Positions 7,427-54,899 of a DNA stretch of 64,000 nt are shown in pieces; the stretch's first letter is position 1, and each line of letters opens with the position of its first letter. A program made the translations under genes and the position numbers. The stretch comes from a virus. Lineage: Duplodnaviria; Caudoviricetes. The stretch lies in the IMG/VR virus record IMGVR_UViG_3300030330_004154, positions 1 to 64,000 of that record; one strand, written 5' to 3'. A model generated the notes under the pieces. That model saw only the letters and a list, made by a program, of their open reading frames with translations. It did not search any database and was not told the DNA's origin.

Positions 7427-9115
7427 ATGAGAAAAAAAAGAATTCTATTTTGCAGTGAAGCTACCTTTCTAAACACAGGGTATGCCACATACACTAGAGA
7501 AATATTAAACTATCTACACTCTACAGGTAAATATGAACTAGCAGAAATGGCGGCTTATGGAGAAAGAGATGACCCAAGAGCGGCTAATATTCCTTGGAAA
7601 TACTATGGCGTAGTTCCAAATCAACAAAATGAACCAAAGGCTTCTCAGCAAGAGTTGGATGCTTACAATGCTACTGCTTCTGCTCAGTTTGGCGAATGGA
7701 TTTTTGAGCATATTTGTTTAGATTTTATGCCAGATATCGTATGTGACATTCGTGACTTTTGGATGTTAGATTTTGCTGAACGATCCCCGTTTAGACCTTA
7801 TTTTAAATGGGCTATCATGCCAACGGTTGACGCTAGACCTCAAGCAAGGCAGTGGGTAGCAACTTATGCAAGTGCAGATGCCTGTCTTACATATTCAGAT
7901 TGGGCAGGCGGTATCTTGCAAGATCAATCTGGCGGCAAGATTAAATATTTAGGTAGCGCACCGCCATCTGCTCACCCTGCATATAAGCCAGTTGAAGACA
8001 AAAGAAAGCATAAACAGCTTATGGGTCTTGATCCAGACTGTAAAATTATTGGTACAGTCATGAGAAATCAAAGACGTAAACTTTACCCAGATCTATTTGA
8101 AGCATTTAAAAAGTTCCTAGATAAATCTGAAGACAAAAACTGTTATTTATATTGCCATACATCTTATCCAGATCTAGGCTGGGACATGCCTGAACTTTTG
8201 AATGAACATGGGATTGGATCTAAAGTATTGTTTACTTATGTTTGCCCAGAAACTAGAAAGCCATTTACATCTGTATTTAAAGGGGCTATGGCGCAATCGC
8301 CTTACACTGGTAGGTTTGGAGCAACACTATCTAACGTAAAAAATGGACTAAGTTATGAAGAATTATCCAACGTGGTAAACTGTTTTGACCTATTTACTCA
8401 GTATGCAAATTCTGAAGGTTTTGGTTTGCCACAAGTAGAGGCTGCCGCCTGCGGAGTGCCTGTGTGCGGAACGGACTATTCGGCTATGGAAAGTGTGTTA
8501 AGGAAGCTAGAGGGTTATCCTATTAAGCCTAAAGCTTTATATAAGGAACTGGAGACCGGATGTTTACGTGCCGTACCAGACAACGATGCGGCGGCAAGTC
8601 TTTTCTTAGAATTCTTTTCAAAATCAGAAGAAGAAAGAATTTCTATTGGAAAAAATACTAGAGAAATGTTTGAGAAGTATTATCAGTGGCATTTAAGTGG
8701 CTCTCAGTGGGAAAAATACTTTGATAGTTTTGAGGCTTTGCCTTTTGAGCAAACGTGGGGTTCTCAACCTAGAATACAAGAACCAGCGCCAAAGATAGAC
8801 TTGTCACAAGCTGGTGCTGTTTCAAACACTCAATTAGCTAAACATTTAATATCAGATGTCTTGAGAGAGCCAGAAAAACTTAATACTTTTTTTGAAGCTA
8901 GACTAACAAGAGACTTGATGTATAAACAGGCGACATCTTCCACGGGTGGTATGTATTACAACGAATCTTCTGCTGCTTTCGATGGAATAAATCGTAGACA
9001 GCCGTTTGATTACAATATTGCTTATGATCAAATGGCAGGGCTGTGCAATAAAAGGAATCAGTGGGAGCAAAAAAGGGCTGAAGTAATGAAGCAAAGGCAA
9101 GAAGCTAGTGTTTAA
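7427..9115 (+). CDS. GT-B glycosyltransferase (GT4-like), 562 aa
   Basis: TGY in the N-terminal loop, IGTVMRNQRRK, EGFGLPQVEAAACGVPV. Confidence 0.9.
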   Translation: MRKKRILFCSEATFLNTGYATYTREILNYLHSTGKYELAEMAAYGERDDPRAANIPWKYYGVVPNQQNEPKASQQELDAYNATASAQFGEWIFEHICLDFMPDIVCDIRDFWMLDFAERSPFRPYFKWAIMPTVDARPQARQWVATYASADACLTYSDWAGGILQDQSGGKIKYLGSAPPSAHPAYKPVEDKRKHKQLMGLDPDCKIIGTVMRNQRRKLYPDLFEAFKKFLDKSEDKNCYLYCHTSYPDLGWDMPELLNEHGIGSKVLFTYVCPETRKPFTSVFKGAMAQSPYTGRFGATLSNVKNGLSYEELSNVVNCFDLFTQYANSEGFGLPQVEAAACGVPVCGTDYSAMESVLRKLEGYPIKPKALYKELETGCLRAVPDNDAAASLFLEFFSKSEEERISIGKNTREMFEKYYQWHLSGSQWEKYFDSFEALPFEQTWGSQPRIQEPAPKIDLSQAGAVSNTQLAKHLISDVLREPEKLNTFFEARLTRDLMYKQATSSTGGMYYNESSAAFDGINRRQPFDYNIAYDQMAGLCNKRNQWEQKRAEVMKQRQEASV

Positions 9116-9767
9116 TGCTCAAGTAAAACAAGATGTTTTTGTAAATAAAATTTTACAGAAAAATGAAGGGTTTTTCTTAGACATAGGCGCTGGTACTGGC
9201 GGTCTTACAGGGCGACCTGTAGAATTTTACAGCAATACTTATTTTTTTGAAAGGTATAGAGGGTGGAAAGGTATTGCCATCGACTACGATGAGAACTGGT
9301 ACAACCACGTTAAAGACAAAAGAACTTGTAAAGTTAGCTGTGTAGACTTACTGGAAGTAAACATAAACGAACATTTAAGTTCTTTAGATTGCCCACATGT
9401 TATTGATTACATTTCTTTAGATGTTGATGACGCTCAATTAAAAGTATTTAACGAGTTTGATTGGGATAAGTACAGATTTAATGTTTTGACTTTAGAGCAT
9501 AATTTATTTCAATCGCAAGATATAGAACTTCAAAGCCATGACGACGAACACAAAGAAAAGATAAAAAAAGAGTATGATCATTACAGAAAAGTGTTAAGCG
9601 ATCAGGGCTACGAAATTCTTTACGCAGATGTTGTGCTAGACGGATACGGCCCAGTAGAGGATTGGTGGGTTGACAAAGAGATATATGAAAAGTATAAATC
9701 TTACAAGACAAAAAATATAAACTATAAAGAGGTTGAGAATGCGAATTTTATATTTGGGACACTATAA
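9108..9767 (+). CDS. FkbM-like SAM-dependent methyltransferase
   Basis: AQVKQD, GFFLDIGAG, SNTYFFE..GWKGIAID, IDYISLDVD, LTLEHN, EDWWV; GTG start. Confidence 0.8.
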   Translation: MFNAQVKQDVFVNKILQKNEGFFLDIGAGTGGLTGRPVEFYSNTYFFERYRGWKGIAIDYDENWYNHVKDKRTCKVSCVDLLEVNINEHLSSLDCPHVIDYISLDVDDAQLKVFNEFDWDKYRFNVLTLEHNLFQSQDIELQSHDDEHKEKIKKEYDHYRKVLSDQGYEILYADVVLDGYGPVEDWWVDKEIYEKYKSYKTKNINYKEVENANFIFGTL

Positions 9768-10872
9768 GGAGTTTGGGGGCTGGTCTCAGGCGGCAACAGA
9801 CAACATACTGGCGCTAGACAGTGTAGGTGTTGATGTTGTTTGTAGAAATGTGACACTAACTCAAGACAAGCAAGACGTTCACCCAAGAATTTTAGAATTA
9901 GAAAAAAAAGATTCTAAAGGTTGCGATATTTGTATTCAGCACGTCCTGCCTCATCATTATGTTGGTTCTGATGAGTTTAAGAAAACCATAGCATTTATGG
10001 AAACAGAAACTTTAAATATAAAACATTTGAATTGGTTCTATCAAATGGACTTGATGGATGAGGTTTGGGTAGCAAACGAAACTTCTAAACAATGCCTAGA
10101 GTCGCATAAAATTACGCCACCTGTAAAAGTTGTTCATCACACTTGTGATGTATCAAAATACAACAAGAGGTATTCAGAAATTTCTATCCCACAGATGGAA
10201 AATACATTTAAGTTTTACTACGTTGGGGACTTTAACGACAGGAAAAATCTAGAATCTATCGTCACCTGTTTTCACTCTGAGTTTGAAGAGTATGAAAATG
10301 TTTCTCTAGCGCTAAAGTTTAATAAATTTGGACTAAACCCTCAAGAGCTAAACGCTAAAGTTGTAGATTATTTGACTGAAATAAAAAAGAAACTTAGGAT
10401 AAGGAATAATTACAAACAAGAAGTTATTATAACAGACAAAGTTCCCGAAGAGAGTTTGTTTTCTTTACATCAATACTGTGACTGCTTTGTTTGTCCATCG
10501 CATGGAGAGGCTTGGAGTATCCCAACTTTAGAAGCTATGGCTTTTGGCAATACGCCAATCGCAAGTAAATTTGGTGGGCCATGTGAATTTATAGACAAGG
10601 GGAATTGGAGGACTGGAACTTTGATAGATGGAGTTTATTCTTGCTGTAAATCTGTTGACTCAGCGTTCCCAGATCTATTTTCTTCTAAAGAGTATTGGTT
10701 TCAGCCGTGCGAAAAGCAAATTAGAGAACAAATGAGAAGGTATTATGAGTCATGGGAAAAAGATCCTGTTGGTTACACCCAAAGAAATAGAGTGGCTGGA
10801 TTAAAGCGGGTAGAAAAATTCTCATATACAAACATAGGAAATATTTTAAAGGAACAATTAAATGGCATATAG
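9739..10872 (+). CDS. GT4-like glycosyltransferase
   Basis: DEVWV, FYYVG..NDRKNL, DCFVCPSHGEAWSIPTLEAMAFG. Confidence 0.88.
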   Translation: MRILYLGHYKEFGGWSQAATDNILALDSVGVDVVCRNVTLTQDKQDVHPRILELEKKDSKGCDICIQHVLPHHYVGSDEFKKTIAFMETETLNIKHLNWFYQMDLMDEVWVANETSKQCLESHKITPPVKVVHHTCDVSKYNKRYSEISIPQMENTFKFYYVGDFNDRKNLESIVTCFHSEFEEYENVSLALKFNKFGLNPQELNAKVVDYLTEIKKKLRIRNNYKQEVIITDKVPEESLFSLHQYCDCFVCPSHGEAWSIPTLEAMAFGNTPIASKFGGPCEFIDKGNWRTGTLIDGVYSCCKSVDSAFPDLFSSKEYWFQPCEKQIREQMRRYYESWEKDPVGYTQRNRVAGLKRVEKFSYTNIGNILKEQLNGI

Positions 10873-11848
10873 TTCACAATCAATAATTGCAAGAGCAATA
10901 AAACCAAAGAACAAAGAAAAGCTAGACATCCTGTGTTTTGATACGCACGAACGCTGTCAGTCACAGATGGCAAAAACAGGACATAATTTTTACGGATTTA
11001 GATACAAAGACTGCAAGGTTTGGAATGAAAGTTTTGCAAAAATACCAGAAAATTACTACTCAATACAAGATCTTCATTCTGACATAGATTTTGACTTTAT
11101 ATTATCTCAAAGTAAATTTGGTCAACTACAAATATCAAGACAAATACAGGCGCAAACAGGTTTGCCAATCATACATCTTGAACATACTATCCCAACTTCA
11201 AATTATACCCCTGAACAAATACAGATGTTTAAAAGTATTTGGGGCGATTACAATGTATTTATTAGTGAGTATGCCAGAGAATCTTGGGGTTTTGACGAAG
11301 GTGAAACGGTTATATGTAATTCTATTGATCATGAATTTTTTAAACCAATAGAAGTAGATTCAGACGAAACAGTATTTACAGTGCAAAATGATTTTGTTAA
11401 CAGGGATTATTGCTTGAATTTTAGTGGCTGGCAGCGTATAATTAATGGCTTCAACGCAAAAGTGCTTGGTGATACACCGGGACTGTCAGAGGTTGCATCT
11501 TCACTAGAGCATCTTAGAGAAGAGTATAATAAGTGCGCTGTTTACATCAACACTACTACCGAAAGTCAGATGCCAACAGCAATATTAGAAGCTATGTCTT
11601 GCGGCAAGCCCGTGGTTAGTACGGCCACATGCTCCATACCAAGCTTTATCGAGCATGGACGTAATGGTTTTTTGACGAACGACGAAGAAGAATTTAAGGG
11701 TTACATTCAGCGGTTGTTAGACGACAAAGACCTTAGAGCCAGCATGGGCAAGGCTGCAAGAGAAACTGTCTTAGATATATTTTCTGAGCAGAAATATGTA
11801 GATAGCTGGAACAACATTTTTAGAAAAGTATACGAGGATTTAAAATGA
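10862..11848 (+). CDS. GT4-like glycosyltransferase
   Basis: VFISEY, PTAILEAMSCGKPVVST, IEHGRNGFL, MGKAARE. Confidence 0.88.
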   Translation: MAYSSQSIIARAIKPKNKEKLDILCFDTHERCQSQMAKTGHNFYGFRYKDCKVWNESFAKIPENYYSIQDLHSDIDFDFILSQSKFGQLQISRQIQAQTGLPIIHLEHTIPTSNYTPEQIQMFKSIWGDYNVFISEYARESWGFDEGETVICNSIDHEFFKPIEVDSDETVFTVQNDFVNRDYCLNFSGWQRIINGFNAKVLGDTPGLSEVASSLEHLREEYNKCAVYINTTTESQMPTAILEAMSCGKPVVSTATCSIPSFIEHGRNGFLTNDEEEFKGYIQRLLDDKDLRASMGKAARETVLDIFSEQKYVDSWNNIFRKVYEDLK

Positions 11849-12264
11849 AAATAGATGTAGTTAGAAACGCAGAAGAAGCAATTTCTGGATACAAGCCTGT
11901 TATTGTCAATGAAGAAGGTTTTGTAAATCTGTTTGACATATCTGACTCAGAATGTGTAGAAGTTAGAGCAAATGGCGTTGTCGATAAATTTAAATCTAGC
12001 CAGTTTGAGCAAACTCTCGTATCACTATTAAAGAAAATAAGACTTGGCGGAAAAATTAGCTTGAGTGGTCTAGACTGTAATATAGTATCAAGGCAGCTTA
12101 TTTCTGGTCAAATAGATGAAAATTTCTTTGGTTCGATTGTAGAAAATAGCAACTCTATTTCTTCTTTAAAAACAGTAGCGCGAATACTTCAAGTCAACGG
12201 TTTAAAAATACAAACGCAAAGAGTTTATGGAAGCACTTACGAAATTGTTGCGGTTAGAGGGTAA
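11845..12264 (+). CDS. Hypothetical protein (weak class I methyltransferase-like C-terminal half)
   Basis: ATGA-coupled ORF; LLKKIRLGGKI resembles the 'L.PGG' strand, but no GxG SAM loop is present. Confidence 0.5.
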   Translation: MKIDVVRNAEEAISGYKPVIVNEEGFVNLFDISDSECVEVRANGVVDKFKSSQFEQTLVSLLKKIRLGGKISLSGLDCNIVSRQLISGQIDENFFGSIVENSNSISSLKTVARILQVNGLKIQTQRVYGSTYEIVAVRG

Positions 12265-12265
12265 T

Positions 12266-12781
12266 ATGTATAGTTTTGATCCAAATATAGGTATTTGTAT
12301 AGATGACGATAGTGAAAACCCAGAAGATCTAGAAAATATTATCAACAAAATAATCAATCTAGAATATCCAAGAAATAAAATCAAGATTGTTATATATTCT
12401 ATTTTTGACAAAGTTGCCGCAAGAATACCTGCACTAGTTTCAAAACTTAGATCAGAGAATATTAGGTGTTCAGCGGTTTTCATAATTGAAGATAATGTTT
12501 TTGAAAACGAAACCTCTGTATTTACTAAACTTGAAAACGCAACATTTTTAGCGAAGATTTCTAGTAAAAGTAATATAAATTTACAAAAGATGCTAGACAA
12601 AATTAATCAGATTTATAACGATGAATCTAAGCAAGTTTTAGTATATCAAGACAAATCTGATATTTTTATAGATAAAGATTATGTTTCTAAAAATTATTTA
12701 AAACATATGAACTACAGTAAAATGGAAAAAGCTATTTTGAATAAAGTTAAAGATACAGAATATTTATATAATATAACATGA
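12266..12781 (+). CDS. Hypothetical protein (GT-A/GT2-like N-terminus, no evident DxD)
   Basis: LEYPRNKIKIVIY resembles the L.YP..I.I motif of GT2-type domains. ATG at 12266 follows AGAGG. Confidence 0.5.
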   Translation: MYSFDPNIGICIDDDSENPEDLENIINKIINLEYPRNKIKIVIYSIFDKVAARIPALVSKLRSENIRCSAVFIIEDNVFENETSVFTKLENATFLAKISSKSNINLQKMLDKINQIYNDESKQVLVYQDKSDIFIDKDYVSKNYLKHMNYSKMEKAILNKVKDTEYLYNIT

Positions 12782-13515
12782 GAAATGTAACAGATTTTAT
12801 AACAAGCCCAAAAGATGGCAAAATTAAATTCGACTTAAACAAAGAGTATACGGTTCTTTTGTTTACAGAAAGTCATGGATATAGGATGAAAAACTATGGA
12901 GCAGTTCAACTAACAAAATTTAATGGTTCGTTTCTTATAGACCATCAGATAAAAGCCCTCAAATCAAGATTTAAAAAACTTAAAATTATTCTGTGCTGCG
13001 GGTTTGAATCTAGTAGGATATGGAAACATTTAAAACAAAAGCACAGTAAACTAGACATAAGGTTAGTAGAAAATCAATTATACAGAACTACAAATTCGTG
13101 CGAAAGCATTAGACTTGGCCTTATGAACACAGACTGTAAAAACATATTTATATGTTCCGCATCTAATTTTTTTGAAAAGAAACATCTTGACCAGTTGAGT
13201 TTTAGTGATACATCTATATTTTGCCAAAACTTGCCCAACAACAAGGCCGACATAAAGGTTTACAAAAATAACAATACTTGCGCCAAATTAGATTTTGGAG
13301 TTGGCGATTTATGCTGGACAGAAATGCTATATCTAGATGGAGAAAAAAGCGTAAATGATTTCTACTCAATTATTGATTCCGAAGATTATAAAAGTAAATT
13401 TTTATTTGAGGCAGTAAATAAACTTACATCAAAATGTAGAATAAATGTATACGAAAACAAACATAAAGAAATAATAAAGCTAGACTCAGCGATAAAACTA
13501 AAGGAACTAATTTAA
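12778..13515 (+). CDS. Sugar/choline-phosphate nucleotidyltransferase-like protein (LicC-like, divergent)
   Basis: GYRMKNYG..L..FNG..LIDHQI, ILCCGF, EN..Y.TTN..ESIRL. The canonical LAAG loop is replaced by FTESH. Confidence 0.65.
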   Translation: MRNVTDFITSPKDGKIKFDLNKEYTVLLFTESHGYRMKNYGAVQLTKFNGSFLIDHQIKALKSRFKKLKIILCCGFESSRIWKHLKQKHSKLDIRLVENQLYRTTNSCESIRLGLMNTDCKNIFICSASNFFEKKHLDQLSFSDTSIFCQNLPNNKADIKVYKNNNTCAKLDFGVGDLCWTEMLYLDGEKSVNDFYSIIDSEDYKSKFLFEAVNKLTSKCRINVYENKHKEIIKLDSAIKLKELI

Positions 13516-14369
13516 TGAAAATATTGATACAAAATTATTCTTCCCACTATACCACAGAACCTTTCTATCTAACAGAATGTCTTAAAAGGGTTGGTATAGA
13601 CTCTCACCTATGGGCAGACGGAAACGTTCCTGCATTTGATATGTTTGATACGATTGCGCCAGATGTATTCGTAGGACATTTTGCATATCTTACAGAAGAT
13701 ATTGTAAAGTATTTGTCCCAAAACAAAAAGATAAAACCTATAATCAATGTTACGGGAACTAGCGAGCAGCAATTAAAAGGTATTACTGACACATTTATGT
13801 CAATAGGTCTAGAAAATGTAGTTCTATTTAGTAATAATTTTGTTCATCCGCATGGAGATTCTGTTCACAAAATTTTCCCAGCCTTTGATGTGTTTATTCA
13901 AAGAAGTAAACCACAATTTAATATACCACTAGCCGTAATAACAAACAACAAAGAAGACTTTGTTAATAATTTTATAGAAGACAAAGAAGTATATCACATT
14001 ATATCTTACGGAGCAGATGAAGAATGGTCAGATTTTGCAATTGATATTAGAAACTTTTGGGGTGTCTCATCGTGCTATGATGACGTAACCCTTATTGATG
14101 ACGGTATAATATCAACATCACAGTTCTTTTTCCAAGCAACCATGATGTGCAACAAACTGAATATTAAAAGTCAGACAGAAGAGCAAAGAGAAGCTTTTCA
14201 AGAAATACTTTCAATGTTATTTACGTCCGAAGAAACGTCTGAAGATGTAGGTAACGTAATAAGAAAACAAATTGTTAAAAATCACACTTGCTTTAATAGA
14301 GCATCTCAGCTAGCAAGCATACTGGGTCTAGAAGAAGAATCTAAAAAGTTATTGGAGATAGTTGAGTGA
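13515..14369 (+). CDS. Hypothetical protein, possibly CgeB/GT-B-like
   Basis: C-terminal IVKNHTCFNRASQL resembles the HTY..RA tail of CgeB-type glycosyltransferases; lies in the glycan locus. Confidence 0.5.
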   Translation: MKILIQNYSSHYTTEPFYLTECLKRVGIDSHLWADGNVPAFDMFDTIAPDVFVGHFAYLTEDIVKYLSQNKKIKPIINVTGTSEQQLKGITDTFMSIGLENVVLFSNNFVHPHGDSVHKIFPAFDVFIQRSKPQFNIPLAVITNNKEDFVNNFIEDKEVYHIISYGADEEWSDFAIDIRNFWGVSSCYDDVTLIDDGIISTSQFFFQATMMCNKLNIKSQTEEQREAFQEILSMLFTSEETSEDVGNVIRKQIVKNHTCFNRASQLASILGLEEESKKLLEIVE

Positions 14370-14998: not shown

Positions 14999-15023
14999 AA
15001 TAAATCACTGGGAGAGAATAGAT

Positions 15024-16486: not shown

Positions 16487-16501
16487 TAACTTGGAGATAA
16501 A

Positions 16502-17635: not shown

Positions 17636-17637
17636 CA

Positions 17638-18021: not shown

Positions 18022-18029
18022 AGGTACTT

Positions 18030-19650: not shown

Positions 19651-19659
19651 GGAATTATA

Positions 19660-22126: not shown

Positions 22127-22134
22127 AGGTACAA

Positions 22135-25364: not shown

Positions 25365-25376
25365 TGTTTAAGTCTT

Positions 25377-25396
25377 AATAACTAGTATTAGTTATT
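25377..25396. repeat. 8-bp AT-rich inverted repeat
   Basis: AATAACTA-gtat-TAGTTATT in the intergenic gap. Confidence 0.55.
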
Positions 25397-25415
25397 CACA
25401 GAGTTACACTATTAT

Positions 25416-25448: not shown

Positions 25449-25474
25449 CATAACAGAATAAGCAAGGAATATAA

Positions 25475-34123: not shown

Positions 34124-34124
34124 C

Positions 34125-39530: not shown

Positions 39531-39531
39531 C

Positions 39532-48600: not shown

Positions 48601-49660
48601 TTAAAAAGTCATGTTTAATAAACTTGGGTGGTCTTGGTGTGTCTGGCCCAACAAAGTTGTATATCAACAATTTAATATCTAGCTTGGGATTAAAATCAAA
48701 ATCTGGCCTTTCCCATTTTTCTGCAAAGTAAGTGTAAAGAACATCAAACACCTTAGCTTCGTTAGCAACTCTATTTATAAGATTATCTAAATTTTGAAAC
48801 TTGTCTGTAAAAACAGCCATGCAAACAGGGATGCCAGAAACATTCAGGTCATCAAACTCTCTAGTCCAAGCTGCATGTGGAGCGCCAACAACAACGGTTT
48901 CTTTATTACCACTAGAACTTAACGCAACACTATGTCCAAACTCGCGACCTTCTTGACCAATATCCCATTGTTGGAAAGGTATAGAAAATTCAGTGTTGGC
49001 ACTGTTTTGTGGATACTTGATTGCCGTTCCGGGTGTAGAGGCAACGTAGTCTCTAATAAATCCACTTGGTAAAACAAGTTTTTGTTCTAAATCCCAACCT
49101 GCTTTTCTGCCTGCAACATCTGTGTTTCTTCTGTACAAAAATACAGCGCCGCCACTTGGCATACCGCTTCCATACTCATCGTAAATGGTGAGACCCGGAG
49201 CGCCTACGGCCATTAGATTTTCACAAACAGATACGGATTTTCCATAGTGTGTACCTGAATTTCTACAAGTTACATCAAGAACACCGTCTGGATCATAATC
49301 GCTTACAAGTTTAATTCCAGAATAATTAAGGGTTTGTTGATTTTGATCTCCAATTGTTCCCGGCCCACATATACCATACTCCCATTCTTCCCAGTCTCTA
49401 GGTTGAGAAATACCATGCGTCTCACCCGTTTCAATAGCCATTGTAACAAAGTAAGGTTGGTTTGGAACAAGCTTGGTATATTTTCTTATGTCATAGTAAT
49501 TGCCAGAATAACTACCGGGGGATTCATTAAATGCCTTTTGTACACTTGGGTTAGTATATGTAGCAAAAGCTCTAAATATACCACCATCAACACAAACTGC
49601 TGGTCTCCAAGTAACATCATCCGTTATTAAGGCTGGGTCGGTTGCCGTTCTATTACTCAT
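42608..49660 (-). CDS. Giant tail protein with seven FG-GAP (integrin-alpha-like) propeller blades (2350 aa)
   Basis: Blades: YGKSV..AVGAP, FGHSV..VVGAP, FGHAV..AIGSP, LGYSC..AFGAP, FGYSV..IVGCP, FGRSV..AIGAP, FGVSV..VGGA, with GAV(Y/F)-type strands. Probable ATG at 49660, 9 nt after GGAG. Confidence 0.8.
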   Translation of the reverse strand: MSNRTATDPALITDDVTWRPAVCVDGGIFRAFATYTNPSVQKAFNESPGSYSGNYYDIRKYTKLVPNQPYFVTMAIETGETHGISQPRDWEEWEYGICGPGTIGDQNQQTLNYSGIKLVSDYDPDGVLDVTCRNSGTHYGKSVSVCENLMAVGAPGLTIYDEYGSGMPSGGAVFLYRRNTDVAGRKAGWDLEQKLVLPSGFIRDYVASTPGTAIKYPQNSANTEFSIPFQQWDIGQEGREFGHSVALSSSGNKETVVVGAPHAAWTREFDDLNVSGIPVCMAVFTDKFQNLDNLINRVANEAKVFDVLYTYFAEKWERPDFDFNPKLDIKLLIYNFVGPDTPRPPKFIKHDFLKFAYIDKLSNSNVDATVTVESIAKDIKSLFLDAFKVSDNPHSGLPPILGIFADESPSSLGGDDINEPIKNFVNFYQSYAYQSGVIDPETSYPNSGYVNRINGVAEKWADASVQLLQETLDTGNLINNDALRYIASGFDVNANPALGTFQIPPSSGGKVYIFDKEGDDINLVQEIKTFNRRASTIALGDDESNDDFLNFELGKDYHDRFGHAVDISKDGKIIAIGSPFTPRPCEVFERVETENDRMYSNIRDWFVHASGRHDYNGLDNTRLDFSANIDRYDELLADSGESIAQSQSYLELNASDKFFYRTDVSFWGATNTIELYKKIYDYKYTDIPYTGTWGFLASEFAPTSRLGYSCAVSDTGNIVAFGAPTDSFNEFDDLNVWYGGTTDLGSGNNRWPSITNAGAVRLFESRKYHPHSGVVEFTRFGNLDRSLNQNDTSISYERMGIYFGVDVAEEGTKPRSFRKMEFSEKKIPQDAGVAFIITPERDVISQDGGEEILTNIKEWLALGDRTLVLVANDPKFEDGGAYAKSTDIVNTILEKLGSRMVVQAARNQEDALLECAESGSFNVVQAFQPEYNHTTFSEYESKISTDNIYARGVGDIKIRLKDNEVSVFKGSGVQMPCNDPLKPLNPEPELPLKQFGDLRAQWNSICSICGPFGCAEIEYKTNWPMYFDNPNPSRACDQYPLPGNLDSPYQDPRPILTAARKTPDRIKIIPEIIIPEVCTSSELFRKECFEVGSSFQRLATDHLDQIAFNIYEPLVPTNGPSGTFNAFNLNTFTNPTALNLRNPILQAKGKIASQIMDDGFETEIVSPDSPLVCQEAPSYAGVGSKVIMIASTRPENRINLGNDPEKSAGEDDKNPAFYSSIVKRNCDNPGVVYQIGGWTGRESFADVMSDFDVMDRDEESRSDLFNLLSSHKHTVEQNFTAHENYALADVLWIADPTGYDEDGVQKIKEYLVNDNKTVVITYNIQPEIYEEDNFGNIGNIISQPFDTIKNVTKICSKLDLNMKPAFSELVSDYLSAQLLDQTPQTINYDYEIVSGCPQGFSWLKNYPSDYTYINYLTTFRDDINDPFRRNEFNIVPVIDTEPSGRIIKYEESLTARKKKFIDQAFFTMQASASVTFPVVDTSGYQVFVNYVSETNDDKIDTGIVISDNSIEDGSFAHDSLTKTEIGNVKQKSYRIQVGTSGTELTVAFDASKHEKIDADSVFVEPRSVRIVSISGCPIPYETVHVTTKTCIDVHDGWEVTCTPSSVIPEQRIVISGVLQPISRSRENYVEPGLVDCETITTEKLIEDGPVVAAEELENFSSFSAGKRRSRIVVISDPTIIQGKCPHYRDNAVGDNQKFLRSLYLPSPQENQQEQKFEKNEEYFETGTKFEYVQKIRSPEAGSPAKYYSLVNEEGLTRRFGKPGVSAKTGKQALYRSDEDDFAPVNVYRQKNPPFDQIESERASFVNLIENTYGVHPRFSGIFRGFGPLTNEQKDEAGIPRFAFEDGKQVEINVIYYPKDEGIRGGITVLQKLTGRDYLDYIDTFSGFPGDLFGYSVDLSDSKLIVGCPFNAFDPNKVWDWTEVSGAPYLSGYKISEYGGAGAAFFFERTGQGTNAKSQFLPFEYKDKLKPESANVGVSGGLSAANIKSQKNIGTERSQDHNDEDFRQTDQFGRSVSVASDMFAIGAPNHDWITEHNHVYDGTSAFLRKEFTAEFDIPAHLYPESSGNPVLNDGAVYTYRHDLTNFGDRSKTVVFAEKLNKQQHRGRFVSTASDPSGTENDKFGVSVAMHRSFRGDSDYTLVGGAINHDYPTSGNHTTGFLKNAGAAFTYDAMLREQPAVIPTESGYIFARVFGPENSRNVSLIVEQPVSGDPITYKASGVVVANRFGEIYLEGSGFDSATKGFTIHRPFVKYVIGTPISGIPIDNSINMVIKAVPGSGQQDMPLFIKDTDGGYVYNNIELYTSGNRDYASGDIDFYVSGNRFFNSGEMDLFVSGVSGVNSASLDLRIRGK

Positions 49661-52600
49661 GTTCGCATACTCCATATCCCACAGTGTTAACACCTCTTAT
49701 TTCATTGTCCAGACTAAGGCTAGAATAAATATTGTCTCTAGCGTCAATCGCAACCCCATAATCGTAACTATCCCAATTAAATCCACCTCCAGATGAAGAT
49801 CCACCGTGAACGTTGTAGATAAACAAAGGCATAGATCCAGAAATTGATCCCGGCTCTACTATATTAGACTGCAAGTACAATGGCATATTGCCAGTTGTAA
49901 TTATCGTTCCACTTCCTGAGACAAACAGTGGCGCTTGAAGAACTCTAAAGTTACTCTCTAATTTTTGCTCACCAGTGCTAAACAGATTTAACGAGTTGTT
50001 GTTTGGAGATGCGCTACCGTCTCCAGCAAGATGATCATTAAACAACATTAAGTTGAAGGGATTTGCTCTAAGGAAATTCCAATAACTACCAGCGCCATAA
50101 ATCATGCCGTTGTAATCCATCGAACCAACAACAGACTCTTGACTAAGTGGTTTCAATACATTTAGAGTCAAAGAAGCGTTTGAATTAGTTCCGTCCGGTT
50201 CATTAGCGCCAATTCTCATCCCTAAACCGAATACATTTCCACCGCCACCGCCACCCATACTACCGCCAGTATTTAGGTCGCTTGTAACTATTTGCTTGCC
50301 GTGTACAAACAAGTCAAGAATACCGCTATGCTCCACAGGTAATCGACCTGACGTGTAAAGATCTATTTGACCGCTTGCGTTAGCAGAGGCTTGGGTATAT
50401 AAATCTAGGCTGTCTTCAATTCTAACAACACCAGAAATTAATAAATCTAGCTGTCCACTTTGTGGAACTAGCTGTTGACCACTTGTATATAATTGAAATA
50501 CATCACCACTTGCATAACCAGAAACACCAAATGTATATAAATCAAGGATACCACTGTCTACAAGGCCGCCACTAGCAAATAAATCAAGAGAACCGCTTGA
50601 AGGATTTGGTTTAACAAAAGCATTCTCTGCTCTAACGTGCGCCGTATGTATTTGTAGGTTTGATATAAATCCGTCAGAAGATGGGTAGACAATATCGTAC
50701 TGCAAGAACATATCGTCAACATCTTGAGAGAACAATCTCTCGCTAAAATCTTTTACCTTTTGGTCATCTGGGAAGAACGCCCATTGCTCAGATTCGTCAC
50801 ACAAATCTTCATGACTAAATGAGCTTTCTATTTTTATAATTGAGCTAGGGCAAGGTTCAATATAATGTATACTTCTATTTATCAAACCGTAGTTTTCTGG
50901 ACTCCAATATGGCTCTTGACTCTTAGTGTAAAGGCTTACAATAAGTTTTGGACCACTTGTACATCTGTCCCATTGAATATTACCACTGGTATGATTTGTT
51001 AAGATGGTATCAACAACAAGGGCGTTGTCTGTAAACTTATAACCTTGCGGTAAATCTTTTCTCACCCTTGGGTAGATTGCATGGAAGTTTTCTGGCGAAT
51101 CGCTTAAATGAAATCTAACAAAGTCGTTTTCAACCTGAGAGTGGTAAGAAACGCCACTGTCTATATTTGCTGGGAATGTTAAATTTGTTCTATTACCATA
51201 AGCCACCCCGTCATTTTCAAGATGGAACGATATTAGGTCTCTATTCGTTCTTTTTGTCAAAGCGTCAAACGATGGACTAAACGCTGGACTTCTAAATGCG
51301 CCAATAGTCCAATCGTGATAGCTGTCCTCGTTTACATACTCCCACAATTTAAATGTATCGTTTACATGAGATTCTTCTGGGTCAAAGAATTTCATGCTTT
51401 GATTATCAAAGAATTCTGTGGCTGTTATTTGTTTAAGATTTCTGTCTGGATTTGATTGAACAACATTAGATCCACTTCCATCAAACGGGTGTGTAAATGC
51501 TATTTCAGCAAGTAAATGTGGTATGTTTCTCTCTTCAGAACAGCCAAAAGAAAGTCTATTATGTACATGTGACAAGCTGACAGTGCTGCTTGTTGCTCTT
51601 AGATTTGTAAATTCACCTTTATGTAGTTCATTGTCTGTGTACAGTCTTATTTTTTGATCTAAATTTTCATTGTACGTAACAAGTACAGTCAAGGGGAATT
51701 GATAACCGCTATAAGGTAGTGTGTCAGAAATTACTTCGCTTCCAGCGGCAGCAAACAATTTACCGCCAGAATAACCTACCTGCAAACCAGTATTGTTAGG
51801 TGTGTCAAAGGTGTAGAACAGCACTCCAAGGTCATAGTAATTGTAAGTCGCTCCACTTGCGTTAGCATCTGGAATAAATCTACTATAAATAGATATTCCG
51901 CTCTCAGTGTTAACGTCTGTAAACTGTAGGTTGTCACCACTGCCTACTCTAAGTATATTATCGTAACCATCAAATATTTGACCGTAAAGCTCATGGTTTT
52001 GGAAATTAACACTACCACTAGCTAACGATGTCCAGTCTGCCGTTTTATATTCACCACTGTATCCCGGTAAAATGTCACCAAACAAAGTTCCGCTTGTTAA
52101 CCTAGAACCAATGTTTTGATGCAAGTCTATAGGTGACGATGTGAATTGTGCATTTCTTGCGGTAGATATAGGTGTTGCTCTGGAGTAGAAAGTGGTTCCA
52201 CTTCTTCTACTAAAGTCAATAAGGCAGTCAATGAATGGCGTGTCTAGCTGTGGGTTCTCAAATCCAAAGCCAAACTGGTCTACATCAAATGGTCCAAACG
52301 TAAGACCTTGCATACCGCGCCATCTTCTGGCATAGTTTGTTTTAATTGTACTAGGCGAAGTAAACTGATGGGGAATACCTTCCAACCTAGACATAGGCTG
52401 GAATCCAGAACCAGTGTTTAGATAAGCATCGCCAGACGCCATTCCCGATGGGAAAAAAGCACCCTCACTTCTTCCAGCTTGAGCGCGACCAATGTCTCCA
52501 CCTTGAGTAGCCAGAGTAAATGCATTTTGAGGTTTATATCTAACTATAAGATGAATATCAGATATAGAAGCGCCACTTGGCAGTGGGAAAATATCTAAGT

Positions 52601-54899
52601 ATAGATTTTCAAAGAAGGTACTCCAACCATAATCTTTTGGTAAACCAAGTTCAACTTCATCTTTAAATATTTTTAATGGAAGTTCATATGTTCTAAATTC
52701 TTCACTATCAACAAGCGGATACATTGTCAACTCATAGTGATCTCCACTTGCAGTATTTTCAAAGTATGCAAATTTATCAGAAATAGCTTCGCCATCTATA
52801 CCAAGATCATCTATCCTTGCAAAGCCAGAGGCTGTCGGTGGAGTAAAGAAGTCAGTGCCAGATGGGTGCTGCAAGAAACCGCCGCTTGGACTTGTAACAT
52901 TAAGAATGCAATCATCGCTGTAGCCAACTACGTCTAAGAAGAAATCTCTCGTACCCGCAGATTTTCTAGCTGTCACAGACAAGCTAATAGAATCTATATC
53001 ATGATAAATATTGTCTGTTTGATTTAACGATACCGTATTCTCTGTATTAAACGCTCCAGAAGGATGGAATCTACCGTCAGAAAATGTGGGAGAAGTCCAT
53101 ATATCTGCTATAGATTGGTCAAAGGCTACATTGAATGCTCCGGGCGTTACCTCGCTAACACTGCTTTGACCAGTTCCAAACTTCAGAATTAATTTGCCAG
53201 AGTCATTAATAACATCATGAGTTGTTATGTAAGTTTCATTACTCTCATCTGTGATGTAAGATATTAATTTTGCGTTATGACAATCATCTAAATTAGAGTA
53301 CTCTCTCTCATGATCTGTCCAAAGAAGATTGCCAGACTCAGGGAATATAGTTGTATCAAAGCCTTTTTCTGGAATATATTTAGGTAGTATTTTTCTTTCT
53401 AATCTTTTACCCTTTTCTGGGTTCATCATGATTAGAGGCATGTAGTTTTCTGGACTTGGGCCAATTCCGGGAAATCCACTACTCCAAATTTCTATGGTAG
53501 ATATTCTTATATTGTTGGTTGGCTTGATAGCAATTTCATTACCATCCGGGTCGTCCTCCATAAACCCATCTGAAAATCCACCGTCAAAAGCATCGTCCAT
53601 TGGCTCTGCTAAAACATCAAACGATAAAGTATAGCCATTCTTCTTTTGTAGGTCTGGATATCCGTCTTGCCACTCGTATTTACTTGCAACTACATTATTA
53701 CTTGGTTTTAAAGAATATGTAGTAAAGTTTTTATACATTCCCGGATGTTTATCGTCACTTGCGTCACCAAAGAAAGTAAAATCTTCGTATTGAACAATCA
53801 AACCGCCGCTAGGGTCTTCAAACTTAATATTTTTAATTGTATATCTGGGTGCAACCTCAGATTCAATATTATTAATGGGCGCAGAAACCCTGAATAATAT
53901 TCTACTATCTAAAGGTTTTAACGTAAAATTGTCTAGATAAAATTTAGCTTGATACTCACCCGACGTATGATTAGTGTGGGGAGTCATATAACTACAAATA
54001 TCATCAGCGACTAATTCAGAATACTCATTGTGGGTAGTATACTTACCTATAAAAACGCCTTCATTTATAAAACTAGCTACTGGAAGCGTTACTTCAAGTG
54101 GCGCGTGACACTCTGCGCTAGTGTCAATATCGGTTGAACCATATTTACCAACAAAATCACCAAGCTCTATAGGATTGCCGTAAAAATGGTCTGGTATTAC
54201 ATCTCCACTAGCATATAGTTTTTGAGTGTTTGAAAAATTTCCTAAATCAAAGTAGTCTGGGAAATCACCGTGGAATTTGTCTAAGAAGTCTGATCCTATT
54301 TCACCAACGGCGTTTAAATCTTGACTTACGCTATAATCTACCGTTAGCCCATCTTCAATTGAGCTAGTCACCTCTATCGCTAAGTCCAAGAAAATATCGT
54401 GCAGTACAATGTCTGACGTTACCTCTAAATCTATTTCTTCATGTACGTTTCTATTTATGTAAGGTAAGGTATCATGACATCTAAACGTCGTCAAATCGAC
54501 AAAGTAAGCGCTTCCAACAACAAGGGGCGTTCCGCTTACCTCTTCTATAATTACATTGAAAAAAGATGAAGTCGTTGAAAATACTTCAAGCGTAGAAACC
54601 ACTACCCCGCCGGAAGAAATAGATATTTTGTCTCCAACAAGCACAGGAGTAGTTATAGATACAGAATACCTGTTGGGATCACCGGGAATTGTAGAAACCT
54701 GCTCTTCAACAATAATTACAGCGGTAGAAGTTAAAGTTTCTATCTCTCTACAGGGCGATGCTAGAGCAGAAGATGCTTCTATTGTATCAGAAAAATTAAA
54801 CGGGTCCAAAGACATTAAAGCGTCAATGCCGCCGTTAGCCCCCGGATCAGCAGAGGCGCTAAAAAGACAATGACATTCTAATTCATGAAGGTATGACAT
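49653..54899 (-). CDS. Giant tail-associated protein (1748 aa) with C-terminal SG-x-LDL-(Y/F) repeats
   Basis: Immediately downstream of the tape measure; acidic, S/G/D-rich; tandem short repeats near the C-terminus. Confidence 0.65.
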   Translation of the reverse strand: MSYLHELECHCLFSASADPGANGGIDALMSLDPFNFSDTIEASSALASPCREIETLTSTAVIIVEEQVSTIPGDPNRYSVSITTPVLVGDKISISSGGVVVSTLEVFSTTSSFFNVIIEEVSGTPLVVGSAYFVDLTTFRCHDTLPYINRNVHEEIDLEVTSDIVLHDIFLDLAIEVTSSIEDGLTVDYSVSQDLNAVGEIGSDFLDKFHGDFPDYFDLGNFSNTQKLYASGDVIPDHFYGNPIELGDFVGKYGSTDIDTSAECHAPLEVTLPVASFINEGVFIGKYTTHNEYSELVADDICSYMTPHTNHTSGEYQAKFYLDNFTLKPLDSRILFRVSAPINNIESEVAPRYTIKNIKFEDPSGGLIVQYEDFTFFGDASDDKHPGMYKNFTTYSLKPSNNVVASKYEWQDGYPDLQKKNGYTLSFDVLAEPMDDAFDGGFSDGFMEDDPDGNEIAIKPTNNIRISTIEIWSSGFPGIGPSPENYMPLIMMNPEKGKRLERKILPKYIPEKGFDTTIFPESGNLLWTDHEREYSNLDDCHNAKLISYITDESNETYITTHDVINDSGKLILKFGTGQSSVSEVTPGAFNVAFDQSIADIWTSPTFSDGRFHPSGAFNTENTVSLNQTDNIYHDIDSISLSVTARKSAGTRDFFLDVVGYSDDCILNVTSPSGGFLQHPSGTDFFTPPTASGFARIDDLGIDGEAISDKFAYFENTASGDHYELTMYPLVDSEEFRTYELPLKIFKDEVELGLPKDYGWSTFFENLYLDIFPLPSGASISDIHLIVRYKPQNAFTLATQGGDIGRAQAGRSEGAFFPSGMASGDAYLNTGSGFQPMSRLEGIPHQFTSPSTIKTNYARRWRGMQGLTFGPFDVDQFGFGFENPQLDTPFIDCLIDFSRRSGTTFYSRATPISTARNAQFTSSPIDLHQNIGSRLTSGTLFGDILPGYSGEYKTADWTSLASGSVNFQNHELYGQIFDGYDNILRVGSGDNLQFTDVNTESGISIYSRFIPDANASGATYNYYDLGVLFYTFDTPNNTGLQVGYSGGKLFAAAGSEVISDTLPYSGYQFPLTVLVTYNENLDQKIRLYTDNELHKGEFTNLRATSSTVSLSHVHNRLSFGCSEERNIPHLLAEIAFTHPFDGSGSNVVQSNPDRNLKQITATEFFDNQSMKFFDPEESHVNDTFKLWEYVNEDSYHDWTIGAFRSPAFSPSFDALTKRTNRDLISFHLENDGVAYGNRTNLTFPANIDSGVSYHSQVENDFVRFHLSDSPENFHAIYPRVRKDLPQGYKFTDNALVVDTILTNHTSGNIQWDRCTSGPKLIVSLYTKSQEPYWSPENYGLINRSIHYIEPCPSSIIKIESSFSHEDLCDESEQWAFFPDDQKVKDFSERLFSQDVDDMFLQYDIVYPSSDGFISNLQIHTAHVRAENAFVKPNPSSGSLDLFASGGLVDSGILDLYTFGVSGYASGDVFQLYTSGQQLVPQSGQLDLLISGVVRIEDSLDLYTQASANASGQIDLYTSGRLPVEHSGILDLFVHGKQIVTSDLNTGGSMGGGGGGNVFGLGMRIGANEPDGTNSNASLTLNVLKPLSQESVVGSMDYNGMIYGAGSYWNFLRANPFNLMLFNDHLAGDGSASPNNNSLNLFSTGEQKLESNFRVLQAPLFVSGSGTIITTGNMPLYLQSNIVEPGSISGSMPLFIYNVHGGSSSGGGFNWDSYDYGVAIDARDNIYSSLSLDNEIRGVNTVGYGVCEHE
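50300..50600 (-). repeat. Protein-level tandem repeat SG-x-(L/I)DL-(Y/F/L)-x-x-G, about 7 units
   Basis: SGSLDLFASG, SGILDLYTFG, SGDVFQLYTSG, SGQLDLLISG, DSLDLYTQA, SGQIDLYTSG, SGILDLFVHG. Confidence 0.8.

What the first reader, a model, noticed from the sequence alone, without database searches (positions are those of the whole stretch)
7427..54899. Candidate phage virion-glycosylation system: 21-kb glycan locus facing tail proteins enriched in a Ser-Gly sequon
Seen: the locus at 7427-28772 encodes at least 6 clear and about 4 probable glycosyltransferases plus sugar synthesis and tailoring enzymes. Seen (approximate manual counts): the 1748-aa protein has ~45 SG versus ~19 GS dipeptides, and the 2350-aa FG-GAP protein has ~46 SG versus ~13 GS. 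The 242-, 369- and 656-aa proteins have 5, 5 and 7 SG (often ASG/PSG/TSG/VSG). The S/G-rich tape measure, which sits in the tail lumen, has only ~17 SG in 2201 aa, and the 1503-aa protein ~6. Known: Ser-Gly is the acceptor of eukaryotic proteoglycan O-xylosylation, and chloroviruses, Mimivirus and some mycobacteriophages glycosylate virions with their own enzymes. Inference: this phage builds a complex glycan and attaches it at SG sites on exposed tail proteins, a sequon-directed glycan coat for shielding or adhesion.
Basis: partly seen in the sequence, partly recalled or inferred. Interest (0 to 1): 0.9.

Follow-up and report, generated by a model that had tools for sequence, protein, structure and literature searches.

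The report
Ser-Gly bias on phage tail proteins
An uncultured aquatic long-tailed phage carries about three times more Ser-Gly pairs than chance in its outer particle proteins and also encodes a large set of soluble sugar-building enzymes, so it may sugar-coat its own particle at those serines, but no chemistry shows this yet.

Summary
The counts are exact: 45 SG / 19 GS in the 1748-aa protein and 46 / 13 in the 2361-aa protein (z about 8). SG is the only outlier among all dipeptides; GS, TG, DG and NG are not enriched. Both serine codon families are used, so the bias is at protein level.

The two proteins are one giant post-tape-measure tail protein, fused in most relatives. The bias holds in 61 representatives (median O/E 2.26). 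Outside the window it recurs in at least three other apparently unrelated virion protein families. It is absent from capsid, portal, terminase, tape measure and all enzymes, and T4 shows no such bias.

All 19 relatives tested carry GT4 genes; 15 of 15 long ones carry the three clustered GT4s. The 562-aa GT4 is 66-94% identical across the clade. No locus protein is membrane-bound. The core GT4's best structural match is a chlorovirus glycosyltransferase.

However, SG sites sit at turns just before beta-strands and swap with NG, DG and TG. A structural turn role therefore fits the positions, though not the preference for Ser. No GT-less relative exists to test against.

Verdict: interpretation partly supported (about 0.4) and unproven. 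This scan has noted the same pattern before on other DNA (151 notes, at least 123 genomes).

The parts
49653..54899 (-). 1748-aa N-terminal half of the giant post-TMP tail protein. SG 45 / GS 19. Contains a lectin-like (ConA/LamG-type) beta-sandwich and C-terminal 8-residue periodic repeats (about residues 1435-1530).
42608..49693 (-). 2361-aa C-terminal half of the giant tail protein (FG-GAP_2 hit). SG 46 / GS 13. Fused to the previous ORF in most relatives (3.7-4.8 kaa).
54908..61513 (-). Tape measure protein, 2201 aa. Internal control with no SG bias (19 vs 17.9).
40638..42608 (-). 656-aa tail protein. SG 7 / GS 3, not significant alone; the G008 homolog has 8 / 1.
39532..40641 (-). 369-aa tail protein. 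SG 5 / GS 1 (z 1.7). Counterparts at this position in relatives are more biased: 296 aa in L004 (9 / 1) and 184 aa in G008 (5 / 0).
34125..39530 (-). 1801-aa distal tail protein with no significant SG bias (14 vs 8.8). The G008 homolog has 3 vs 8.2.
29612..34123 (-). 1503-aa distal tail protein with no SG bias (6 vs 6.9).
28832..29560 (-). 242-aa last protein of the tail module. SG 5 / GS 3 (z 2.4).
7427..9115 (+). Core GT4 glycosyltransferase, 562 aa. It is 66-94% identical across the clade, and its best structural match is chlorovirus NY2A B736L.
9108..9767 (+). FkbM-type methyltransferase.
9733..11848 (+). Second and third core GT4 genes (379 and 328 aa).
11845..14369 (+). Four unassigned soluble ORFs, conserved in the complete relative G008 (30-37% identity).
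14366..22126 (+). Variable cassette: GT2, methyltransferase-like, DegT aminotransferase, FdtA-like isomerase, RmlA-like nucleotidyltransferase, RmlB-like 4,6-dehydratase, weak WecG-like, GT11. G008 has no homologs here (only a weak 24% match to the dehydratase) and carries a different block of about 9.5 kb instead.
22111..25364 (+). Conserved right flank: NAD-dependent epimerase, unassigned ORFs and an HNH/homing-endonuclease-like ORF (23507-24271). Homologs in G008 are 36-69% identical.
25475..28772 (+). Polysacc_synt_2 dehydratase/epimerase, carbamoyltransferase (527 aa), and an unassigned 285-aa ORF. This is the end of the locus, convergent with the tail module.

Best explanation
The window is the first 64 kb of a 97.5-kb fragment (about 59% complete) of an uncultured aquatic siphophage. 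Complete relatives are 145-176 kb. I propose that the phage uses its own soluble enzymes to make nucleotide sugars in the host cytoplasm. These include a dTDP-3-amino-3,6-dideoxyhexose-type branch with methyl and carbamoyl tailoring. I propose that it then builds an O-glycan step by step directly on folded or folding outer virion proteins. The preferred acceptors would be serines of Ser-Gly pairs exposed at turns just before beta-strands, in the context hydrophobic-x-(Pro/Ala)-Ser-Gly-hydrophobic. The conserved GT4 trio would start and build the core. The variable central cassette would set a strain-specific outer glycan. The result would be a glycan coat on the tail tip, fibres and head decoration, for shielding, stability or adhesion. 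Shown: the bias, its specificity, conservation and distribution; the soluble nature, conservation and core-plus-cassette layout of the locus. Inferred: that the virion is the target, that SG serines are the sites, and which GT initiates.
For: SG is the only outlier dipeptide (z 8-9.5); GS, TG and DG are near 1, NG is depleted, and both Ser codon families are used. The bias is family-wide: 61 representatives below 50% mutual identity have median O/E 2.26, and GS is 1.06. Ser in SG is conserved at 61%, against 40% for other Ser, at about 44% overall identity; 31 of 91 sites are shared by three lineages and the rest turn over while the total is kept. The bias recurs in the 385/1503-aa fibre, the 326/329-aa protein and the 155-aa protein beside the putative capsid gene, and in 536-, 561- and 168-aa proteins of G008; none of these gave a BLAST match to the giant protein or to one another at E 1e-4. 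The totals are 2.0-3.0 in the outer virion modules and about 1 in capsid-to-terminase, tape measure, enzymes and early genes, in both this genome and a complete relative. T4 virion proteins show no bias. SG sites are never inside strands in the confident part of the model; 10 of 13 lie in loops within 3 residues of a strand start. No protein in the locus has a transmembrane segment. All 19 relatives tested carry GT family genes and 15 of 15 long ones carry the GT4 trio. The 562-aa GT4 is 66-94% identical where the tail protein is 31-45% identical. Its best PDB match is the chlorovirus GT4 B736L, and chloroviruses glycosylate their capsid in the cytoplasm with their own enzymes (PMC5408694). 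A GT2 and a pyruvyl transferase lie inside the virion module beside two proteins with PTTTTTQG repeats. The flanks of the locus are conserved and the centre is swapped, as in serotype loci. Precedent for Ser-not-Thr cytoplasmic multi-site glycosylation of beta-rich proteins: TibC, with one mapped site in NSGG (PMC4358343).
Against: There is no chemical evidence. Every relative has the GTs, so co-occurrence says no more than that both are core genes. SG sites behave like ordinary polar-X-Gly turn positions: their replacements are TG 60, NG 55, SS 42, DG 39 and EG 34, and Pro/Ala at -1 fits a type I turn with a Gly bulge. Deficits of NG, DG, GG and TG make up about 40% of the SG excess. The putative capsid protein and the two large distal tail proteins (1503 and 1801 aa), which should also be exposed, show no bias. 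Most of the excess in the 917-aa fibre comes from 15 copies of a single tandem repeat. The structure model is poor overall (pLDDT 54). The GT4 fold matches mainly GT4s acting on small soluble acceptors; GtfA and OGT are not among the 50 listed hits. B736L itself has no known function (PMC5408694).
Confidence: 0.4

Rival explanations
1. SG is a structural turn code with no link to glycosylation. In this lineage, beta-rich fibre and tail proteins build the turn before a strand (a type I turn with a Gly bulge) using Ser-Gly instead of the usual Asn-Gly or Asp-Gly. One possible reason is that Ser-Gly is chemically stable, whereas Asn-Gly and Asp-Gly form succinimides in long-lived particles. If the virion is glycosylated at all, the sugars go elsewhere, for example on the Thr-rich mucin-like repeats.
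For: 10 of 13 confident SG sites lie within 3 residues upstream of a strand start, and none lies inside a strand. The context is Pro/Ala at -1 with hydrophobic residues at -3 and at +2 to +5. Replacements at SG columns are mainly TG, NG, SS, DG and EG. NG is depleted family-wide (O/E 0.72), and about 40% of the SG excess is offset by deficits of other X-Gly pairs. About half of the sites are positionally conserved. SG also forms part of the periodic C-terminal repeats.
Against: Turn geometry does not explain why Ser is chosen over Asn, Asp, Gly or Thr. NG depletion is equally present in proteins without SG bias (TMP and the 1503- and 1801-aa proteins), and DG is not depleted in the two biased window proteins. 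The SG excess (+1813) is far larger than the NG plus DG deficit (-431). The bias spans several protein families that share no detectable similarity yet skips other large virion proteins. T4 fibres and baseplate proteins show nothing similar.
Confidence: 0.35
2. The glycan locus is an auxiliary gene set that remodels the host's surface polysaccharide (LPS or capsule) during infection. It would use the host's own initiating transferase, flippase and ligase, for example to block superinfection. The SG bias is then unrelated.
For: The closest cellular homologs of the cassette aminotransferase are Prochlorococcus genes at 66-69% identity. The cassette has the content of an O-antigen-type locus: RmlA-like, RmlB-like, FdtA-like, DegT, GT2 and GT11. 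GT4 and GT2 enzymes that act on lipid-linked intermediates need no transmembrane segment. It is established knowledge that large LPS-type gene sets occur in marine cyanophages.
Against: No initiating transferase, flippase, polymerase or ligase is encoded. The core GT4 is conserved at the level of the capsid protein and terminase (66-94%), which is unusual for an accessory host-remodelling gene. It is present in 15 of 15 long relatives. Further glycan enzymes sit inside the virion module next to mucin-like structural proteins.
Confidence: 0.15
3. The glycosyltransferases hypermodify the phage DNA with sugars to evade restriction.
For: The locus lies directly downstream of the replication genes (split DnaE, exonuclease, SSB) on the same strand. 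Phage GT-B enzymes that glycosylate DNA are well known, and multi-sugar DNA glycans have been reported (cited in PMC12619734).
Against: None of the genomes has the ThyA-type hydroxymethylase as a conserved feature. Of four complete relatives, three have ThyX and only one has ThyA, used interchangeably, which fits plain dTMP synthesis. This genome fragment has neither, but it is only about 59% complete. A pathway with five or more GTs, methyl, carbamoyl and amino-deoxy sugars is far beyond known DNA glycans.
Confidence: 0.05

Closest known systems
Autonomous cytoplasmic virion glycosylation of chloroviruses (PBCV-1 / NY-2A) and other giant viruses
   Same: The virus encodes both sugar-nucleotide enzymes and soluble glycosyltransferases. 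The process needs no ER/Golgi or membrane export, and attachment is at non-canonical sites on virion proteins (PMC5408694). The core GT4 here has chlorovirus NY-2A B736L as its best structural match. Tailoring by methylation occurs in both.
   Different: Chlorovirus glycans are N-linked to Asn of the major capsid protein. Here the candidate sites are Ser of Ser-Gly on tail, fibre and decoration proteins, and the capsid protein shows no bias. The host is a bacterium. No glycan has been measured, and B736L itself has no known function.
Virion O-glycosylation of mycobacteriophages (Che8, Corndog, Myrna) by phage-encoded glycosyltransferases (Freeman et al. 2023, as cited in PMC12619734; the paper itself was not held)
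   Same: A tailed phage with its own GTs that modifies its own structural proteins in the cytoplasm. The proposed role is a glycan shield.
   Different: In the mycobacteriophages one or two GTs act on the C-terminal ends of capsid and tail-tube subunits. Here there is a 21-kb pathway, and the candidate sites are dozens of dispersed Ser-Gly turns on a giant tail protein and on fibres. No C-terminal acceptor tail was seen. This case is unproven.
Bacterial autotransporter heptosyltransferases TibC/AAH acting on TibA and AIDA-I
   Same: Cytoplasmic, multi-site, Ser-but-not-Thr glycosylation of a beta-rich surface protein at loops between short strands. One mapped TibA site is the Ser of NSGG (PMC4358343).
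   Different: TibC is a dodecameric ADP-heptose transferase with an iron-finger (PMC4358343). The Pfam and PHROGs scans of the locus proteins returned no heptosyltransferase family. The other mapped TibA site is Ser-Ala.
Eukaryotic proteoglycan xylosyltransferase acceptor (Ser-Gly with acidic flanks)
   Same: A Ser-Gly dipeptide as the minimal acceptor, with Ser rather than Thr.
   Different: Acidic residues are depleted around the phage SG sites (Asp 0.35 at -3; Glu 0.59-0.64 at +2 and +3), and Pro/Ala plus hydrophobic residues are enriched instead. No xylosyltransferase-type family appeared among the Pfam hits. The eukaryotic enzyme is a Golgi enzyme.
'Evolved Dit' and tail-tip proteins of siphophages with inserted carbohydrate-binding modules (for example Lactobacillus phage J-1 Dit CBM2)
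   Same: The position is immediately after the tape measure gene. The domain is a lectin-like beta-sandwich, and 5LY8 and a cyanopodophage tailspike are among its structural matches.
   Different: The size (about 4100 aa in total, one fused chain in most relatives), the FG-GAP region, the C-terminal periodic repeats and the SG bias are not features of described Dit proteins. No sequence-level match was found in PDB, PHROGs or cultured phages.

Membership tests
Virus-encoded autonomous virion glycosylation (chlorovirus type) | The virus encodes soluble glycosyltransferases and sugar-nucleotide synthesis enzymes, without membrane export machinery. | tested here: met
   Pfam finds 5 GTs plus RmlA-like, RmlB-like, FdtA-like, DegT, epimerases, methyltransferase and carbamoyltransferase. 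No hydrophobic segment was found in any ORF of the locus.
Virus-encoded autonomous virion glycosylation (chlorovirus type) | A glycan is covalently attached to a virion protein. | not testable with these tools
   This needs mass spectrometry or glycan staining of particles, and no cultured relative exists.
Virus-encoded autonomous virion glycosylation (chlorovirus type) | The GTs are related to those of viruses known to glycosylate their own virions. | tested here: inconclusive
   The best Foldseek hit of the 562-aa GT4 is chlorovirus NY-2A B736L (E 3e-15, TM 0.74 normalised to the target). However, B736L has no known function (PMC5408694), and generic GT4s follow closely.
Mycobacteriophage-type virion O-glycosylation | The acceptor is on the C-terminal ends of the capsid and tail-tube subunits. 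| tested here: not met
   The putative capsid protein has 3 SG vs 2.1 expected and the tube-like protein 8 vs 4.1. No Ser/Thr-rich C-terminal tail was seen; the bias is dispersed over tail-tip and fibre proteins.
Autotransporter heptosyltransferase (TibC/AAH) system | A heptosyltransferase-type enzyme with an iron-finger motif. | tested here: not met
   The Pfam and PHROGs scans of the locus proteins returned no heptosyltransferase family; the GTs found are GT4, GT2 and GT11.
Autotransporter heptosyltransferase (TibC/AAH) system | Ser-specific acceptors in short loops between beta-strands. | tested here: inconclusive
   The sequence bias is Ser-specific (TG O/E 0.87), and SG sites lie in loops next to strands. 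Whether these serines are modified is unknown.
Proteoglycan xylosylation sequon | Ser-Gly flanked by acidic residues. | tested here: not met
   Asp and Glu are depleted at -3, -2, +2 and +3 around 3381 SG sites.
Wzx/Wzy- or ABC-dependent surface polysaccharide locus | An initiating polyprenyl-phosphate transferase, a flippase or ABC exporter, and a polymerase or ligase. | tested here: not met
   No Pfam hit for any of them, and no ORF with a predicted transmembrane helix between 7427 and 28772.
Phage DNA glycosylation (T-even type) | A pyrimidine hydroxymethylase (ThyA homolog) supplying the base to be glycosylated. | tested here: not met
   A ThyA-family hit occurs in 1 of 4 complete relatives and ThyX in the other 3. 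This fragment has neither, but it is only about 59% complete.
Siphophage tail-tip (Dit/Tal-position) protein | Encoded directly downstream of the tape measure gene, with a beta-sandwich or carbohydrate-binding-like domain. | tested here: met
   The tape measure protein is at 54908-61513. The next ORFs are the 1748- and 2361-aa proteins. The lectin-like fold matches include phage J-1 Dit CBM2.

The most novel reading that the evidence does not exclude
A widespread, uncultured clade of 145-176-kb aquatic siphophages writes a minimal Ser-Gly 'sequon' into the exposed turns of its tail-tip, fibre and head-decoration proteins. It then coats them in the cytoplasm with a complex O-glycan, which may carry methyl and carbamoyl groups, made entirely by phage enzymes. 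A conserved GT4 core would build the base, and a swappable cassette would give strain-specific outer sugars. This would be a virion 'serotype' system in a tailed phage.
Probability: 0.4. Interest if true: 0.85.

Novelty: new variant of a known kind. Interest (0 to 1): 0.68.

Why it matters
Virion glycosylation by phage-encoded enzymes is documented for only a few mycobacteriophages and for giant viruses. If the Ser-Gly bias marks real attachment sites, glycosylated phage particles could be recognised from sequence alone. This scan's earlier notes suggest the pattern is common among uncultured aquatic phages. A glycan coat would affect particle stability, adsorption, grazing and decay in water, and it would alter how receptor-binding proteins are read from sequence. 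A swappable sugar cassette would point to an arms race over the surface of the virion itself. If the bias is purely structural, it is still a strong, lineage-specific rule for building beta-turns in fibre proteins, and it should be known so that it is not mistaken for a sequon.

Tried and rejected
1. A DNA-level cause (a repeated nucleotide motif) is rejected. The SG serines use TCT, AGT, AGC, TCA, TCC and TCG in proportions similar to all serines.

2. Internal repeats as the source are rejected for the two giant proteins. They are accepted for most of the 917-aa fibre's excess (15 tandem copies).

3. A general property of phage fibres is rejected. No T4 virion protein reaches z above 2.1.

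4. I could not find GT-less relatives. Four close and 15 long relatives all carry GT families. The 80 best viral homologs of the core GT4 are all at least 66% identical, and those on long contigs share contigs with giant-protein loci. Among cultured phages only a 23%-identical hit in Tetrasphaera phage TJE1 turned up. The giant protein has no match in cultured phages.

5. Sequence searches of the two giant proteins against PDB and PHROGs gave nothing. The core GT4 had no PDB sequence match, and the second GT4 matched only generic GT4s.

6. PHROGs and a relaxed Pfam scan left about a dozen locus ORFs unassigned.

7. The contig encoding a distant family member (P0075) was too short to show its GT content.

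8. The paper on 'moraphages' (PMC12619734) describes a different lineage, with contractile tails and no tape measure protein. The Freeman 2023 paper was not held. Literature searches found no earlier description of an SG bias in phage virion proteins.

9. No tRNA genes were found to give host clues.

10. Chemical-stability replacement of NG/DG as the full explanation is rejected. NG depletion is also seen in unbiased proteins, and it is too small to account for the excess.
Full report
WHAT THE WINDOW IS. The window is the first 64 kb of a single 97,555-bp virus record, estimated to be about 59% complete. It is a tailed phage. It has a large terminase subunit and a 2201-aa tape measure protein at 54908-61513, followed on the minus strand by very large tail proteins. 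There are no close cultured relatives. The 1748-aa protein has no match among 50,697 phage records, and the terminase is only about 24% identical to those of Microcystis phage MaeS and Bacillus phage Basilisk. Related uncultured records are numerous. The near-complete ones are 145-176 kb, and some have direct terminal repeats.

CHECK OF THE OBSERVATION. The 1748-aa protein has 45 SG and 19 GS (16.0 expected, z 8.3). The 2361-aa protein has 46 SG and 13 GS (14.9 expected, z 8.6). The tape measure protein (19 vs 17.9) and the 1503-aa protein (6 vs 6.9) are unbiased. The 242-, 369- and 656-aa proteins have 5, 5 and 7 SG, but these are not significant on their own.

In a scan of all dipeptides, SG is the only outlier in both proteins and in their distant homologs. 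TG and DG are at expectation, and NG is depleted. The SG serines use both codon families in about the same proportions as all serines, so the signal is selected at protein level and is not a DNA motif. Both proteins end in 8-residue periodic repeats that contain SG. Removing those repeats still leaves 30 vs 10.4 and 40 vs 14.0.

THE PROTEIN FAMILY. The two ORFs are halves of one protein. In most relatives a single ORF of 3.7-4.8 kaa covers both. In this phage and its 83-88% identical relative, the break falls in a variable linker. A sensitive search of 1.84 billion representatives found 130 hits, 61 of them longer than 1000 aa. Every one shows the bias: median SG O/E is 2.26 (range 1.2-3.25), and GS is 1.06.

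At about 44% identity, the Ser of an SG pair is conserved in 61% of cases, against 40% for other serines. Thirty-one of the 91 sites are shared by three lineages. The rest move, while the total is maintained.

BEYOND THE WINDOW.
- 385-aa fibre: 15 SG / 2 GS.
- 326-aa protein: 9 / 5.
- 155-aa protein next to the putative capsid gene: 10 / 4.
- 917-aa fibre: 27 / 5, although 15 of these come from one tandem repeat.
The terminase, the portal-sized protein, the capsid-sized protein and all enzymes are not biased.

In a complete 173-kb relative that I assembled from fetched pieces, the same picture holds. The giant protein has 90 SG vs 32.6 expected, a 1503-aa fibre has 56 vs 23.7, and several further proteins without detectable similarity to them are also biased. 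Class totals are SG O/E 2.0-3.0 for the giant protein and the tube-to-fibre module and about 1 elsewhere, with GS about 1 everywhere. T4 virion proteins show no such bias.

THE GLYCAN LOCUS. Pfam supports three GT4s, a GT2, a GT11 and a weak WecG-like hit. It also supports RmlA-like, RmlB-like, FdtA-like and DegT enzymes (the route to a dTDP-3-amino-3,6-dideoxyhexose, by established pathway knowledge), two further epimerase/dehydratase proteins, an FkbM methyltransferase and a carbamoyltransferase. About a dozen ORFs remain unassigned. No ORF in the locus has a hydrophobic segment typical of a membrane protein, and there is no initiating transferase, flippase, polymerase, ligase or oligosaccharyltransferase.

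The GT4 trio (about 560, 380 and 330 aa) is present in 15 of 15 long relatives. The 562-aa GT4 is 66-94% identical across the clade, where the tail protein is 31-45% identical. Compared with the complete relative, the flanks of the locus are conserved and the central 8-10 kb is replaced.

Outside the window, a GT2 and a polysaccharide pyruvyl transferase, plus weak GT8-like and sulfotransferase-like hits, lie inside the virion module. They sit beside two structural proteins with PTTTTTQG repeats. This arrangement is not found in the complete relative.

STRUCTURE. The model of residues 549-1748 of the 1748-aa protein is poor overall (pLDDT 54), but it is confident for about 300 residues. These form a lectin-like beta-sandwich. 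Matches include ERGIC-53, laminin-G domains, the carbohydrate-binding module of phage J-1 Dit and a cyanopodophage tailspike. In the confident parts, 10 of 13 SG pairs lie within 3 residues upstream of a strand start, against 32% for all residues (p 0.001). None lies inside a strand.

Over 3381 sites, Pro/Ala is enriched and Lys/Arg depleted at -1. Hydrophobic residues are enriched at -3 and at +2 to +5, and acidic residues are depleted.

The 562-aa GT4 folds confidently (pLDDT 81). Its best PDB match is the chlorovirus NY-2A GT4 B736L (E 3e-15), followed by generic GT4s such as MshA and BshA.

WEIGHING THE READINGS. Several facts favour Ser-Gly as an acceptor for phage-made glycans. The bias is directional and Ser-specific. 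It spans several protein families with no detectable similarity to one another. It is confined to outer virion proteins, and its density is kept while individual sites turn over. It also sits beside a soluble, highly conserved glycan pathway with a variable cassette. Chloroviruses provide a precedent for cytoplasmic virion glycosylation by viral enzymes at non-canonical sites (PMC5408694). TibC provides a precedent for Ser-but-not-Thr multi-site glycosylation of beta-rich proteins, with one mapped site in NSGG (PMC4358343).

Other facts count against it. The sites are turn positions, and where SG is lost it is replaced mostly by TG, NG, SS, DG and EG. This is how ordinary polar-Gly turns behave. 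About 40% of the excess is offset by deficits of other X-Gly pairs. The capsid protein and two large distal tail proteins lack the bias. No relative lacks the GTs, so the key comparison cannot be made.

A pure 'avoid labile Asn-Gly' explanation fails. NG depletion also occurs in proteins without SG bias, and it is too small to account for the excess. DNA glycosylation is unlikely, because relatives use ThyX or ThyA interchangeably. Host-surface remodelling remains possible. The cassette aminotransferase is 66-69% identical to Prochlorococcus genes. The lack of membrane steps and the capsid-like conservation of the core GT4 argue against it.

VERDICT. The same pattern has been noted many times in this scan on other DNA (151 notes in at least 123 genomes). 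I treated those notes as leads only.

Noticed in passing
window 49653-49693 (junction of the 1748- and 2361-aa ORFs): The giant tail protein is split here into two ORFs that overlap by 41 nt, with the downstream ORF in the +1 frame and starting at GTG. Most relatives have one fused ORF of 3.7-4.8 kaa. The 83-88% identical relative (L003) is split at the same place, so this is not an assembly error. The break lies in a variable linker.
   Followed up: partly
window 50320-50600 and 42650-42760 (C-termini of the two giant ORFs): Eight-residue periodic repeats of the form SG-x-(I/L)-D-L-(Y/F)-(T/V). The two C-termini are 43% identical over about 80 residues. The family consensus shows L-N-L ... 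G periodicity. The region was modelled with very low confidence, and it may need a trimer to fold.
   Followed up: partly
genome 77614-80214 and 81305-82858 (L001:15614-18214, L002:1305-2858): Two virion-module proteins carry mucin-like PTTTTTQG repeats; the 866-aa one has 59 cysteines. They flank a GT2 gene (genome 80216-81265). The complete relative G008 has no such Thr-rich tracts.
   Followed up: partly
genome 71263-73351 (L001:9263-11351): A polysaccharide pyruvyl transferase (41 bits), plus weak sulfotransferase-like and GT8-like hits, lie among the head-tail and fibre genes. In G008 the homologs of the GT8-like gene lie in the early region instead.
   Followed up: partly
genome 74795-77548 (L001:12795-15548): A 917-aa fibre with 15 tandem copies of an 18-residue unit containing SGYFESR. 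Its N-terminal 100 residues are shared with the 385-aa fibre and with two G008 fibres.
   Followed up: partly
window 23507-24271: An ORF inside the glycan locus matches HNH/homing-endonuclease PHROGs (E 4e-15) and is conserved in G008 (59% identity). That is unexpected for a mobile endonuclease.
   Followed up: no
window 16502-17635: The closest cellular homologs of the DegT aminotransferase are Prochlorococcus (66-69%), Ca. Planktophila (68%), a Bacteroidota MAG (66%) and OCS116 (64%). This is a weak hint about the host or about the source of the cassette.
   Followed up: partly
window 55301-55345 (query positions 6169-6213 of the TMP gene): A 45-nt stretch of the tape measure gene is 91% identical to the lysozyme/endolysin gene of Synechococcus phage S-SCSM1.
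   Followed up: no
relatives G005, G008, G010, G011: Complete relatives carry either ThyA (G008) or ThyX (G005, G010, G011), never both. The thymidylate synthase type has been exchanged within the clade.
   Followed up: no
window 3271-7055: Replication genes (split DnaE-like ORFs with an ORF between them, then SSB at 7093-7425) lie directly upstream of the glycan locus on the same strand. The homologs in G008 keep the same order.
   Followed up: no
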